Below are positions 851-35,751 of a stretch of 64,000 bases of DNA, piece after piece. Within the stretch, counting starts at the first letter, position 1, and each line of letters begins with the position of its first letter. The notes under the pieces were generated by a model. It ran no database searches and had not been told where the DNA came from. It worked only from the letters and a program-made list of their open reading frames with translations. The position numbers and the translations under genes are program-made. Location of the stretch: positions 229,896,001-229,960,000 of the forward strand of contig OZ024743.1 in the NCBI GenBank assembly GCA_964016885.1, read 5' to 3'. The stretch is from Eledone cirrhosa (taxonomy: Eukaryota).

Positions 851-1446
851 TTTACTGGATAAAATAATGGAACTTGGATTTACAAAATCATAAATTTAAG
901 TCTTTTATGAAATCACTCTTTGCTGTCTTATGCAATTTCCCTAAAAGTCTCTAGTCCAGTCATATCCACATTTCATTTTAACCAAACAGCAACTATATAT
1001 AAATCTCTGGATTTTCAGGTTTTTAGCGTTGATAAGAGATGGGCAAGGAAAAAGAATAATGTAAAAAGATATTCAAACGAAGAGAAAGCGAAAAGATAGA
1101 AGAAATCTATCAAACGTTAAAATCCTAAACTAATGATTGCTGTTTATATACTATTCGATTAAATTGGGGTTTTAGATCAAGCTGAATTTCTCTCTCTGTC
1201 CCTCTCTCTCACTCTCGCTCTCCCTCTCTCTGTATGTATGTATATATATATACAAATACAAACACACCCATGCACAAATACACACACACACATGCATACA
1301 CACACACACACACACACACACACACATATATATATATATATATATATGTATATATAGTAATAATAATAAATTTGAAGACTCAAATCCAAAGAGGGCTCGA
1401 TAAGGATAAATATATAAGAACCGTAGAGCAAATATTTATTAAAATA

Positions 1447-1523
1447 ACAGATTAAAGTTTAAGCAAAGTATCGCTGCTTTCACCCTTAACGGGATCTTCT
1501 GAAACTAAACAAAATCAATCTGT
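1447..1523 (-). ncRNA. Type I hammerhead ribozyme, family A (U4A core)
   Basis: Reverse-complement homologue of the 3824-3900 fold. Confidence 0.7.
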
Positions 1524-2215
1524 GAACGCAGAAGTAAATATTTCAAAAAACGTTGCAACCGAAGGAAGACAGGAAGACGATACTTTGGTTCGTGGAAACG
1601 TTCTCTGGCAAAGAACGGATAAAGACAAAGATGATACGTAATTATTTGGAGGGGTGAAAACAATTACACGCAAAGACAAAACCACGTTTATGGTATAAAT
1701 GAAGTCGTAGACTAATATTCTGTTAGGTGGTTCGTAGAGACGTTCCCTGGCAATGAACGGAAAAAACGAAGATAATACGTCATTATGTGGAGCGTTAAGA
1801 ACAATTACTCGCAAAGACAAAACTACGTATATGGTATAACTGAAGTCGTAGACTAAAATTCTATTAGGAAACCGAATGATTCCCGGCTTCAGAGTTAAGA
1901 ATAAAGTAAATAAATTACAGAGGTAATTGAAATTAAATATATACATGCACGCAACCAAATACGTACAAACACAAGCATACGCGAAATCACCCGCAATGGG
2001 TATGCCAATACAAGCACGTAAAAATAAAACAAAAATAAACACACGCACGTACATACAGACCCCACGTAACGCCTGACCCGCACGCAAACGAACGTATACA
2101 CCAAATACACATAAAAATATATATAATATATATATATATGTGTTTGTGTGTGAGTGTGCGTGTATACATATAATTATATAAACATATAGAGATATACACA
2201 CATAAATACGTATAA

Positions 2216-2819
2216 ATTTTAATGGTATTTCTATTAAAAGTTTTACTATAATTATGTACTGGGGGGAAATGCTTTATAATAGAAATACCATTAACATGTC
2301 TTACTCTACGACTCCTAACCTGGCACATAACATCACAGCTTCAAATTTAGCTAAATTACCTAGCAGTAGAAACACGTGCAACCCTGTAGCTAGTACTAGC
2401 TGTAATTGTAGGAATCGGGTTGACTGCCCCTTATCCGGAAAATGCCTCCTAGTAATATTGTCTACAAATGTAAGGTGGAAACATCCACGTCCCGTAGGGC
2501 CTACATAGAGTTAACCGCCAATAGATTCAAGCAGGTCTTTACATGCATATCCATTCTTTTCTTAACCCTTTAAGAAGGAATATGACGTCACTTTCAGCTT
2601 ATATCTGGAATCTAAAAGACAACCACACCCAATATAAGTTACACTGGGAGATCCTAGCTAGGGCTAGATCGTATAACGGAAATTAAAGACCATGTGACCT
2701 CTGCGTGCTCTACGCCAAAGACCACATCTTAAACAAAAAATCTGAGGCAATTTCGGTTTGTAAACATAAATTGCACTTTTTCCTGTATTACAGCCCCACA
2801 TTATACCCTAACGGATAGT
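2216..2819 (+). pseudogene. Penelope-type GIY-YIG endonuclease C-terminal remnant (frameshifted)
   Basis: Translated motifs NRNTINMSYS, CNCRNRVDCPLSGKCL, YIWNLKDNHTQYKLHWEILARARSY, CDLC and LNKKSEAISVCKHK, typical of PLE linker and endonuclease regions. Confidence 0.85.
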
Positions 2820-3823
2820 ACGAACTATACGCGAAAATGTTACGTCTTGATGTGGTAGTTAAGTATATGTTATGTTTATACCATTACTTATTTGTATAGG
2901 TATGTATATTTTACTTGTATGTTTTGTGAAGGTACATATACTTTCTCGTACGTATATTTGCTTGTATATGTTATGGCGTATATATTATATATACTGGTAC
3001 ATGTGCATATGGTTATGCGTATACGTGAGTTTTGCGTCTGTGTAAGTATGCGGGTTCGTACTTTGTGTTTTGGTTGTACGTCTGCGTACATATGTGTATT
3101 TACAGGTGGTATGTGTGTGAGCGCGTTTATACGTATTTATGTGTGTATATTTTTATACGTTTATATAATTATATGTATACACGCACACCCACACACACAC
3201 ATATATATATATATATATATTTATATATATATCTTTATGTGTATTTGGTTATACGTTCGTATGCGTGCGGGTCAGGCGTTGCGTGGGGTCTGTATGTGCG
3301 TGCGTGTTTTTTTAATTTTTTTTGTGTGTACGTGCTTGTATTGGCATACCCATTGCGGGTGTTTTCGCGTATGCTTGTGTATGTACGTATATGGTTGCGT
3401 GCATGTATATATTTAATTTCAATTACCTCTATAATTTTTTACTTTATTCTTTACTCTGAAGCCGGAAATCATTCGGTCTCCTAATAGAATTTTAGTCTAC
3501 TTCTTCAGGTATACCATATACGTGGTTTTGTCTTTGCGAGTAATTGTTCTTACCGCTCCACATAATGACGTATTATGTTCGTTTTTTCCGTTCATTGCCA
3601 GAGAACGTCTCTACGAACCACCTAATAGAATATTAGTCTACGACTTCATTTATACCATAAACGTGGTTTTGTCTTTGCGTGTAATTGTTTTTCCGCACAA
3701 AATGATGACGTATTATCTTTGTCTTTATCCGTCCTTTGCCAGGGAACGTTTCCACGAACCAAAGTATCGTCTTCCTGTCTTCCTTCGGTTGCAACGTTTT
3801 TTCAAATATTCACTTCTGCGTTC

Positions 3824-33229: not shown

Positions 33230-34170
33230 AATTAGTATATCTACCAACATATATATACAGATGCATACCTATGCTAGCAAATATATAGGTTTCGTCTTAG
33301 TAACTTTGTGGTTCAATGCAAGGGGATGCAGAACAATTATATGAAAGACGTAAAATAAGAAAATTATAAAAATTAACTTACAAAAATTTCACTCCAACTA
33401 ATTAGTTTCTGAAAGGGAATAAACATGGTTTCCCAATGGAACGCATGGAGAAAACCTTTCGTCATCGGAAGTCTGTTCTCAGCTAAGTTCCCAGGCAATG
33501 TGTGGACACAGGGAACTTATACAAACATAATTCAGTGGATGGACAAAAGCGAGCGTGGACTAAATTCCAAGACATTGAAAAAATCACTGCCTACTTGGTC
33601 GGTGGCAAATTCAAAAGAATCAATTACGTGACATCGAGGTTAATCAGTGAGGAGTGGGGTGTTAAAAAGACAGTAGCCGAACCATTACTATGAACTATAG
33701 TAGCAGTTTTGGCAAATTTTTTTACTCAACAAAATAATTTGGAGATAATTATAAAGAATTAGTATATCTACCAACATATATATATACAGATGCATACCTA
33801 TGCTAGCAAATATATAGGTTTTGTCTTAGTAACTTTGTGGTTCAATGCAAGGGGATGCAAAACAATTATATGAAAGACGTAAAATAAGAAAATTAACAAA
33901 ATTAACTTACTTACTAAAATTTCACACCAACTAATTAGTTACTGAAAGGGAATAAACATGGTTTCCGAATGGAACGCATGGAGAAAACCTTTCGTCATCA
34001 AGAAGTCTGTTCTCATCTAAGTTCAGCTGAGAACAGACTTCTTGATGACGAAAGGTTTTCTCCATGCGTTCCATTCGGAAACCATGTTTATTCCCTTTCA
34101 GTGACTAACTAGTTGGAGTGAAATTTTAGTAAGTAAGTTAATTTTTATAATTTTCTTATTTACGTCTTTC
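33230..34170. mobile_element. Family F-related element: about 527-bp tandem unit plus inversion, with three decayed hammerheads
   Basis: ATTAGTATATCTACC at 33231 and 33758; fold-back near 34025; shares the ACTAATTAGT stem III and GGAGT stem I with 22123-22204. Confidence 0.75.
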
Positions 34171-34307
34171 ATATATATATATATATACGCCAGCACCAAC
34201 AGTTTTGCTAGAGATGTCAACATGAATGGACCTGTTATTTTTATCTAAAGACATTTTTTCCAATTCCAACCCGCCCGTCCCCTCAATCTATCTTATTTCT
34301 CATTCTT

Positions 34308-34343
34308 TCTTCTGATGAAGGACTAGCGTCCGAAACGTCAATA
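34308..34343 (+). ncRNA. Minimal type I hammerhead, family I
   Basis: TT-CTGATGA-A-GGAC tagc GTCC-GAAA-CG-TC-AA, palindromic ACGT stem III; lies in an about 220-bp island between (TA)n tracts. Confidence 0.75.
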
Positions 34344-35751
34344 CCCTCTTCCTGCTATATCCCTTCCATATACTGTACCGAATGTGTTGTTATTTCTGTT
34401 TACCTTTTACACACACACACATATATATATATATATATATATATATATATATATATATATATATATATATATATATATATATATATAATGTATTGTTATA
34501 CTTTGAATAAAACACACATGCACAAGTTGATTTTCACATCAATTTAATATTATAACAATATACGTTTTCACATCAAACATTTTGCAAAAGAAATACAAAA
34601 AACGAATTATTTATGTTTATGTGGCTGTAATCTTGAGCACAGTTTGGCGTTCAGTTTGGGGTATTTGCTGAGTTTAGTAGACTGATTGGAACAATAACGT
34701 TCTTATTTGCGCATATCTATTTGAAAATATACATTTTAAAACCCCAGAAGGCCGAACTAGAAATATTCTTTGAAGTTTTAATGTTTTAATAGAAATACAT
34801 ATAGTGTTCTTGCAATATTATAATTTTAAAGATCTACAGTCCAGTCTTATGCAGCATCCACGGGATTCCACATCTACGACGAATGATTTGCATAATCTTG
34901 AGTGCTTTAATTTACTAACCGGAATGATCAGTTAAATCCATTGGTAAACCACACAACATAACTGGTATGCATATAATGTAGTAATGTATACTGTCAAAAT
35001 GATTATAAATACGTGGTGGTCGTTTTTAATTAAACAGTGGATTTTTTTCCGGCGCCAGCTACTTTAGTTAGTAATACTTCCATTGATAAATTTGACACTG
35101 TCGAGATTTTTCTTGAACTGAAACAAGCGGACGGTTGCAGCAAAATCATGGAGGGCATTACAGATGACTATAGAGGAAATAGTTAATGCAGCGGTGAAAG
35201 CATGGCCTGGCGGGATGTGAATAGGATTCAGGATACAATCGAAAAGGAGTGCGTGACGAACCAGGTCAAAGGAGCAGAGGTGAATCTAATACTGGAAGTA
35301 AAGGCATAATTGAGGTGTGATACCTAACTATCAGCCAGCATCATTGGCGTGAAACTTCATGCCAATCAACCAAGCAGCTTTTTCGGGAGGAATACGATCA
35401 AAGTGTCTGTATGGTAGCAGGCTGGTAAGAGATGGAAGAAAAGTGTTATGTACAAATCAAGAAATAAGACGACTGTGTAAAAGTTGAAATCCTACTGGGA
35501 TAACTATAGCTTTTTGCTTCTTCAGTCATTTATGTTGCGATGTTTGGTTCTGATTCAATTGACTATACCCTTTCCTCACCTATACCTACAAATATTCAAA
35601 GCTAACAAAAATGCTAGGCTTTAATAAATGCTAAAACTTTGTTGTTGATATTCCTAACGCTGCACTAATTGTAATTGGTGTTTGTATTATATTCTCTGTA
35701 GGAAATTTAGCGTTGTGACTAAAGAATTCGCTTTTAATTAAGTGTATGTGC

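What the first reader, a model, noticed from the sequence alone, without database searches (positions are those of the whole stretch)
1358..34410. About ten unrelated repeat families, each carrying a hammerhead ribozyme, inserted in (TA)n tracts
Seen in sequence: type I hammerhead folds at 3824, 10870, 11535, 19138, 22123, 27286, 27938, 29273, 32212 and 34308, plus paralogous copies (over 20 motifs in about 33 kb). Each sits in an element with inverted or partial tandem repeats bounded by TA microsatellites, and most have a short palindromic stem III (ACTAGT, ACCGGT, ACGT, ACTAATTAGT, ACTGTACAGT). Established: Penelope-like elements and non-LTR retrozymes carry minimal hammerheads that cleave as dimers through palindromic stem III. 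Inference: a diverse, probably unannotated set of PLE-mobilised self-cleaving RNAs makes up much of this apparent junk DNA.
Basis: partly seen in the sequence, partly recalled or inferred. Interest (0 to 1): 0.85.

Follow-up and report, generated by a model that had tools for sequence, protein, structure and literature searches.

The report
Hammerhead-tagged Penelope ends and retrozymes
The self-cutting-RNA motifs packed between TA repeats here are real sequence features of a known kind: eight families are cut-off tail ends of Penelope-like jumping genes and four are protein-free repeat units likely copied by them, and cutting itself is untested.

Summary
Largely confirmed. All ten sites hold type I hammerhead-like motifs of genome-wide repeat families; I found two more families (28659, 32849, minus strand), giving 26 full-span copies in 12 families. 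Eight families are 3' ends of 5'-truncated Penelope-like elements (PLEs): an RT/GIY-YIG ORF lies 0.4-1.4 kb upstream in other copies (Hydra-type and Neptune-type motifs), and a broken GIY-YIG remnant lies at 2206-2815. Four families have no ORF and close into 315-590 bp units, two seen as long arrays (non-LTR retrozyme type). Copies end at (TA)n at two fixed points; 53 of 59 inverted pairs carry one short and one long end, the PLE tail footprint. A 1 Mb sample gave 127 intact-core motifs against 2-3 shuffled, about 380,000 genome-wide. Corrections: families are not all unrelated; motif-bearing blocks are 34% of the 33 kb; only 5 of 26 window copies pass a strict descriptor; three families carry non-canonical cores; no RNA data. 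A known kind of system; this scan reported it before on other pieces of this genome and in other genomes.

The parts
1347..4049 (.). F1 composite insertion: inverted arms of a Hydra-type PLE 3' end; hammerhead copies at 1437-1532 (-), core 3846 to H17 3886 (+), 3937-4031 (-); family core has A at position 4
   Evidence: collinear at 84-86% with PLE copies in L147 and L127
2206..2815 (+). Broken C-terminal GIY-YIG endonuclease remnant with a CxCX5C linker motif, in several frames, about 1 kb upstream of the F1 hammerhead
   Evidence: tblastn with the L196 ORF E=1.5e-9; no Pfam hit for the pieces
5557..5746 (.). F5 fragment: inverted pair holding only the stem III half of the motif
10738..11057 (+). 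F2 monomer of an ORF-less ~421-bp unit; canonical core at 10876, palindromic stem III, H17 10906
   Evidence: 25 copies in tandem in L219
11153..12016 (.). F3 ORF-less ~315-bp unit: partial tandem (cores near 11539 and 11853, +) plus an inverted damaged copy (11291-11376, -)
12063..12677 (-). F4 3' end of a Neptune-type PLE, U3-A8 core, motif 12188-12259
13442..14778 (.). Second F1 insertion, inverted pair (13532-13626 -, 14682-14776 +), one long and one short end
14803..14960 (.). F5 fragment, inverted stem III halves
18890..20438 (.). F6 ORF-less ~590-bp unit with a nested short repeat; two motifs (cores 19142 and 20296, +), U3-A8 core, both with G12U
21421..22276 (.). F7 monomer of an ORF-less ~555-bp unit plus inverted arm; canonical core 22128, H17 22199 (+)
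27073..27414 (.). F8 3' end of a young PLE; hammerhead-like motif 27290-27317 (+) with two core changes (U4C, A6U)
27511..28124 (.). F5 inverted pair, 3' end of a Hydra-type PLE; motif 27943-28028 (+) with C3.A8, and 27508-27641 (-)
28567..28772 (-).
   Evidence: GIY-YIG 927 bp upstream in L144 only
28785..28999 (+). F4 copy, G12 changed to A
29044..29550 (.). F9 3' end of a Neptune-type PLE plus inverted tail; canonical core 29278, H17 29312 (+)
32074..32451 (.). F4 inverted pair; intact U3-A8 motif core 32245 to H17 32216 (-) and a second at 32299-32369 (+)
32470..32647 (.).
32767..32880 (-).
33197..34171 (.). F7 diverged subfamily, three damaged motifs (33383-33487 -, 33918-34033 -, 34010-34125 +)
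34188..34421 (+). F10 3' end of a Neptune-type PLE; canonical core 34312, 4-nt palindrome, stem I reduced to 2 bp in this copy

Best explanation
The region is a pile of insertions into (TA)n tracts in which eight families are 5'-truncated 3' ends of Penelope-like elements carrying their terminal hammerhead motif and four are ORF-less hammerhead repeat units likely copied by the same Penelope enzymes. Shown: motifs, upstream RT/GIY-YIG ORFs, unit closure, two fixed 3' ends per family, flush (TA)n borders. Inferred: the PLE endonuclease nicks (TA)n; the RT starts at two internal sites just downstream of the hammerhead, one on each DNA strand; synthesis usually stops early, leaving a short back-to-back pair with one short and one tailed end. 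The hammerhead is common because it lies next to the start of reverse transcription. In the ORF-less families it would cut multimeric transcripts to unit length, pairing through the palindromic stem III. Most copies in the window are likely dead.
For: ORF upstream on the same strand at a family-specific distance: F1 about 0.9 kb (L058/L059, L127, L147, L276), F5 0.7-1.2 kb in 8 loci, F9 440-563 bp in 4 loci, F11 and F12 in one locus each; F8 414-750 bp in 16 of 24 loci; F10 in L310, sharing 1.4-1.6 kb with L316 and L302; F4 in 8 of 14 fetched loci. In L150 the order is GIY-YIG end, F12 hammerhead, next ORF 202 bp on. Tail recurs upstream on the same strand in F2 26/39, F3 13/34, F6 22/40, F7 96/112, against at most 2 copies in each of the other eight families; periods about 421, 555 and 590 bp. 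(TA)4 within 200 bp downstream in 70 of 81 sampled copies against 23% of random positions. One short plus one long end in 53 of 59 scored inverted pairs, including F3 4/5 and F6 6/7. F7 stems 97.3% paired, 16 cells with double changes, 0 of 500 shuffles as high; one stem II pair occurs as AU, CG, GC and UA. U3-A8 compensated cores in F4 and F6. Papers: PMC4209133, PMC11167929, 10.1101/2021.04.23.441226, PMC7229834, 10.64898/2026.07.22.740005.
Against: No RNA or cleavage data. Clades rest on motifs, not on a tree with named references; Pfam named only 1 of 8 ORFs and the rest rests on look-alikes with HTH_animal/RVT_1/GIY-YIG. F11 and F12 links rest on one locus each; one F3 locus also has a GIY-YIG 1 kb upstream (L253). 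F2 pairs had equal ends (0 of 2), and F7, F10, F12 were not scored; short/long cut-offs were set after seeing the data. In one search the number of pairs with double changes (3) did not exceed shuffles (279 of 500) and rows were hand-picked. In no family was the double-hammerhead fold the lowest-energy dimer. Internal TA runs in F4 and F9 inflate the 70/81 count.
Confidence: 0.85

Rival explanations
1. All twelve families are independent non-coding self-cleaving RNA elements, active as a community of ribozymes.
For: Short copies dominate; four families do fit; 127 intact-core motifs per Mb.
Against: Eight families continue upstream into RT/GIY-YIG ORFs and do not close into units; 21 of 26 window copies fail the strict descriptor.
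Confidence: 0.05
2. The ORF-less families are satellites born from a PLE end and spread by DNA-level processes (unequal crossing over, duplication); their hammerheads are passengers.
For: Long near-identical arrays of F7 and F2; local amplification is a model discussed in 10.64898/2026.07.22.740005, where 8 of 9 tested dimers did not cleave; PMC11167929 found hammerhead mutants did not affect insertion in vitro.
Against: Dispersed copies on many chromosomes end at fixed points in (TA)n with the short/long footprint (F3 4/5, F6 6/7); F7 stem II covaries between subfamilies; cores stay canonical or compensated in all four families.
Confidence: 0.08
3. The motifs are chance matches in AT-rich, palindrome-rich repeats.
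For: No Rfam hammerhead hit shown; relaxed descriptor also hits shuffled DNA (4.4 per window).
Against: 127 against 2-3 shuffled and 2 reversed in 1 Mb; 107 of 127 fall in 16 multi-locus families; fixed position in PLE ends; covariation.
Confidence: 0.02

Closest known systems
Minimal type I hammerheads in PLE pseudo-LTRs (Cervera and de la Pena 2014, PMC4209133; parts 1-2 of 4 read)
   Same: Short stem I, bulge 5' of stem II, palindromic stem III, U3-A8 variant, many families per genome, mostly single motifs from truncated PLEs, pairs on opposite strands.
   Different: Far higher count here (about 127 per Mb; that paper gives thousands per genome); some families have long stem II inserts, hairpin stems III, or fixed U4A, U4C+A6U, C3.A8 cores.
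Hydra clade of PLEs (Craig et al. 2021, 10.1101/2021.04.23.441226; section 11 and passages read)
   Same: C-terminal GIY-YIG, CxCX5C linker, no CCHH, DKT motif, hammerheads, insertion into (TA)n (F1, F5, F11, F12).
   Different: Described from a small number of families; here F1 alone has 19 motif copies per Mb. No tree with named Hydra references was made.
Neptune-type PLEs (features as given in Craig et al. 2021)
   Same: [quoted passage not shown]
   Different: F8 has the inner cysteines but a different linker spacing; clade unassigned.
Animal non-LTR retrozymes (Cervera and de la Pena 2020, PMC7229834, passages; Li, Clavereau and Pollet 2026, 10.64898/2026.07.22.740005, parts 1-3 of 5)
   Same: ORF-less low-GC tandem units with a type I hammerhead in each unit, monomers to long arrays, coexisting with PLEs (F2, F3, F6, F7).
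   Different: Units of 555-590 bp exceed the 150-450 bp first described but lie within the 51-972 bp of the preprint; here they also show the PLE two-end footprint; circular RNA not shown.
Poseidon element of Anolis, internal priming (Frangieh et al. 2024, PMC11167929; parts 1-2 of 4)
   Same: Two RT start sites downstream of the hammerhead that define the tail; both strands of AT-rich DNA cut and extended.
   Different: Tails here are about 30-120 bp by family; mechanism inferred from genomic ends only.
Type-SGC permuted hammerhead (Eckert et al. 2023, PMC10085705; passages)
   Same: Block order of F13 at 32532-32647.
   Different: Direct stem II only 2 bp; window copy truncated; untested.

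Membership tests
Type I hammerhead ribozyme | Core CUGANGA (or U3-A8), GAAA, UH around three stems | tested here: met
   Majority core canonical or U3-A8 in 9 of 12 families
Type I hammerhead ribozyme (F1, F5, F8) | Invariant core | tested here: not met
   F1 U4A in 14 of 16 sampled copies; F8 U4C+A6U in 28 of 28; F5 C3.A8 in 45 of 51, though 2 of 4 unbiased copies have U3-A8. Hammerhead-like, membership open
Type I hammerhead ribozyme | Covariation of stems | tested here: met
   F7 only, 12 hand-picked rows; other families not formally tested
Type I hammerhead ribozyme | Site-specific self-cleavage after H17 | not testable with these tools
   No RNA run listed
EN+ Penelope-like element | RT plus C-terminal GIY-YIG ORF upstream of the hammerhead | tested here: met
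   8 families; F11 and F12 from one locus each
EN+ Penelope-like element | 5' truncation, inverted or partial tandem layout, tail on one end only | tested here: met
   53 of 59 pairs
EN+ Penelope-like element | RT groups with PLE RTs in a tree | not tested
   No named reference proteins were fetched; only Atlas look-alikes and one RVT_1 hit
Hydra clade (F1, F5, F11, F12) | CxCX5C linker, no CCHH, DKT motif, (TA)n target | tested here: met
   Linker and GIY-YIG read in L147, L174, L150, L144; DKT seen for F1 only, in L147; TA ends
Neptune-type PLE (F4, F9, F10) | CX2-5CxxC linker and cysteine pair within GIY-YIG | tested here: met
   clade name rests on motifs only
Non-LTR retrozyme (F2, F3, F6, F7) | Non-coding tandem unit of a few hundred bp with a type I hammerhead per unit, low GC | tested here: met
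   F2 and F7 units 37% GC, longest ATG frames 97 and 27 aa; F3 and F6 seen only as partial tandems
Non-LTR retrozyme | Expressed as linear and circular unit-length RNA | not testable with these tools
Type-SGC hammerhead (F13) | [quoted passage not shown] | tested here: inconclusive
   Order and stems I and III present, 85.9% of cells paired, 7 pairs with double changes, mostly in an extra helix; stems II and III show none

The most novel reading that the evidence does not exclude
This genome holds several hundred thousand hammerheads, more than any count I saw in print (126,247 in axolotl), and is a natural experiment: protein-coding PLE families amplified after losing a canonical core (F1, F5, F8), whereas all four ORF-less families kept one and still carry the PLE twin-end footprint. 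That would mean cleavage is dispensable for PLEs but required for retrozymes, which are inserted by a PLE enzyme priming twice on one RNA.
Probability: 0.3. Interest if true: 0.62.

Novelty: new member of a known kind. Interest (0 to 1): 0.38.

Why it matters
The system is known, so the value is in scale and testability. One genome offers dozens of hammerhead families, parent PLE ORFs from several clades, young ORF-less arrays and natural core variants side by side. These allow direct tests of two open points raised in the papers read: what the hammerhead does in the PLE cycle, and whether PLE proteins mobilise animal retrozymes. It also shows that many short 'unknown' repeats in such genomes are PLE ends that Rfam does not flag.

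Tried and rejected
Rfam scan: no hammerhead among 150 of 158 rows shown; the one hit above a gathering score (Plastid-psbJ-2, 14886-15028) is a TA tract plus the F5 inverted repeat. First descriptor too strict, 2 hits. Own-genome search with the F2 stretch returned no candidates, a limit of the search, since the 1 Mb sample held 33 copies. Pfam on the window's GIY-YIG pieces: nothing significant; PDB sequence search with the L196 ORF: nothing. Sequencing runs: no RNA holder listed, which says nothing on expression; contigs of X4 (organism B, kind unknown) cover most of the F7 unit with no listed change in the core or stems, too thin to use. Pattern search for a canonical-core relative of F8 gave 12 matches of an unrelated family. 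Folding energies did not single out the active fold; long stem II loops were left unfolded, so values for F5, F6, F7, F11 are too weak. Microhomology priming at element ends was considered, looked at by eye only and dropped; PMC11167929 reports priming without homology. A generic SGC descriptor found only a simple tandem repeat and missed F13 because of its 2-bp stem II. Lunse et al. 2017 is not held; only its title was seen in a reference list.
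Full report
Setting. The window is G000:C4:229896001-229960000 of a 3.0 Gb animal assembly. I did not identify the organism; it resembles an octopod genome by recall only. The first 38 kb are rich in (TA)n tracts.

Observation. Rfam showed no hammerhead among 150 of 158 rows. A relaxed descriptor gave 14 hits against 4.4 in shuffles; a strict-core one gave 5 in 1358-34410 against 0.08. 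Reading each named site gave a type I layout at all ten. Self-comparison splits them into ten DNA families. Two more families lie on the minus strand at 28659 (F11) and 32849 (F12). In all there are 26 full-span copies and 4 partial F5 copies. Twenty-one TA-bounded blocks hold a motif and cover 11,269 bp, 34% of the interval; this omits some motif-free blocks of the same elements, such as 2139-3201, and includes a nested short repeat.

Genome-wide. I fetched 100 evenly spaced 10-kb stretches (not a random sample). Copies per Mb: F2 33 (25 in one array), F1 19, F9 14, F4 13, F10 7, F11 7, F12 5, F5 4, F7 2, and F3, F6, F8 0; direct searches gave 575-1,147 candidates for those three. The strict descriptor found 127 motifs against 2, 3 and 2 in shuffles and 2 in reversed DNA; 107 fall in 16 families seen in two or more stretches, 11 of them not matched to a window family. 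The bootstrap range is 89-172 per Mb, or 270,000-520,000 in the assembly by extrapolation, F1 not included. The window's 5 strict hits in 33 kb (about 150 per Mb) are thus ordinary for this genome.

Core state by family. Canonical majority: F2 33/39, F3 30/32, F7 111/112, F9 16/22, F10 30/41, F11 13/15, F12 5/7 for the single commonest core. U3-A8: F4 51/54, F6 37/39; this variant is known from Schistosoma PLEs (PMC4209133) and is active (PMC3088659, passage). Deviant: F1 U4A 60/65 (14/16 in the unbiased sample), F8 U4C plus A6U 28/28, F5 C3.A8 45/51. Tallies for F3, F5, F6, F7, F8 and F10 come mostly from best matches to the window copy and lean toward it; of 4 unbiased F5 copies 2 have U3-A8. 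PMC3088659 notes that a U4C viroid variant is slower but viable and that A6C has low activity; I found no passage on U4A or A6U there or in PMC11014351. F7 subfamilies covary in stem II, with the limits given under the best explanation.

What the elements are. The window holds a broken GIY-YIG remnant at 2206-2815, collinear with PLE copies in L147 and L127 through to the F1 hammerhead. The sample held 36 PLE-like coding pieces, 33 kb. Eight families have such an ORF upstream on the same strand: F1, F5, F11, F12 with the CxCX5C linker and no inner cysteine pair, the Hydra definition of Craig et al.; F4, F9, F10 with CX2-5CxxC and the inner pair, Neptune-type; F8 with the inner pair and another linker. 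Pfam named only one of eight ORFs; the Atlas placed the L196 ORF at 0.94-0.97 beside clusters with HTH_animal (25-100% of members), RVT_1 and GIY-YIG. The other four families close on themselves: the tail recurs upstream of the motif in F2 26/39, F3 13/34, F6 22/40, F7 96/112 (overlapping array loci inflate F7) against 0-2 copies elsewhere. F7 forms a 555-bp array of about 19 kb on C1 at 99% identity to the window copy; F2 a 421-bp array. These match animal non-LTR retrozymes.

Insertion footprint. 70 of 81 sampled copies have (TA)4 within 200 bp downstream against 23% of random positions (internal TA runs in F4 and F9 inflate this). Most families end at two fixed distances, for example F1 12-16 and 45, F5 10 and 90, F6 about 50 and 170, F8 148 and 190. 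Of 60 distinct outward-facing inverted pairs in nine families 59 were scored and 53 have one short and one long end (p=2e-10 against one half; cut-offs chosen after seeing the data; F2 0 of 2; F7, F10, F12 left out). Craig et al. describe a tail on one end only, and Frangieh et al. tie it to two internal RT start sites with both target strands cut and extended.

Mechanism. Shown: the anatomy above. Inferred: a PLE RT-endonuclease nicks (TA)n, primes at two sites downstream of the hammerhead on opposite strands, and mostly stops within a few hundred bases; later insertions re-use the split TA tract, which builds dense fields. The ORF-less units would use the same enzymes, and their hammerheads would release unit-length RNA by pairing through palindromic stems III. 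Energies favour the paired over two single folds for the palindromic families F2, F3, F4, F6, F7 and F11 but never make it the lowest state. In PLE ends the motif may be relaxed: deviant cores occur in 3 of 8 ORF-linked and 0 of 4 ORF-less families (chance about 0.25 by simple counting, so a lead only), in line with hammerhead mutants not affecting insertion in vitro (PMC11167929). No RNA holder was listed.

An extra. Earlier notes of this scan pointed to a permuted hammerhead in this genome. A truncated copy of a family with S-G-C block order lies at 32532-32647 and a diverged one near 37975-38102 (minus); the family has 1,139 search candidates and the inverted-tail layout. Its pairing exceeds shuffles, but the double changes lie in an extra helix and distal stem I. 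I did not test the Naiad link those notes claim, nor that it is the same family.

Literature. Read: PMC4209133 parts 1-2 of 4; 10.64898/2026.07.22.740005 parts 1-3 of 5; PMC11167929 parts 1-2 of 4; 10.1101/2021.04.23.441226 section 11 and passages; passages of PMC7229834, PMC3088659, PMC11014351, PMC10085705, PMC13282606. Five searches showed no paper on cephalopod hammerheads; the Octopus vulgaris repeat annotation lists active Penelope families and has no occurrence of 'hammerhead' or 'ribozyme' in its main text. Supplements were not read, Lunse et al. 2017 is not held and Repbase could not be checked; any of them may already list these families.

Verdict. Real, well supported, and a new set of members of known kinds: PLE pseudo-LTR hammerheads and non-LTR retrozymes. 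Interest is moderate, from the density, the twin-end footprint on ORF-less families and the fixed core variants.

Noticed in passing
window 37975-38102 (-): Diverged, damaged copy of the S-G-C-order hammerhead family also seen at 32532-32647.
   Followed up: partly
window 56085-64000: 15-bp tandem repeat, 519 copies, running off the window end; one frame would read as a Gly/Cys-rich pentapeptide. Satellite or repetitive exon not decided.
   Followed up: no
window 16019-18839 (-): LINE-like endonuclease/RT coding stretch inserted between TA tracts; a 321-aa open piece was listed in L061. Label recalled, not tested.
   Followed up: no
window 44207-44681 and 50549-51031; 47047-47426 and 51443-51820: Two further pairs of related LINE-like remnants, 84% and 69% alike.
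   Followed up: no
window 19434-19755, 23841-23939, 41849-42061, 51956-52388, 55886-56063: Abundant short SINE-like repeat, also nested inside F6 and F10 copies. Label recalled.
   Followed up: no
window 43382-44140: Element with terminal inverted repeats inserted in a (CATA)n run, MITE-like by eye.
   Followed up: no
L121-L220: Eleven multi-locus hammerhead clusters not matched to window families, some next to PLE ORFs (for example 198 bp upstream of the ORFs in L126 and L196).
   Followed up: partly
L321-L332: Another canonical minimal hammerhead family with a 4-nt palindrome, ending at (TA)n.
   Followed up: no
L378:1500-6000: Near full-length F4 parent PLE with 412-aa and 249-aa open pieces; F4 3' region has an internal 312-bp duplication.
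   Followed up: partly
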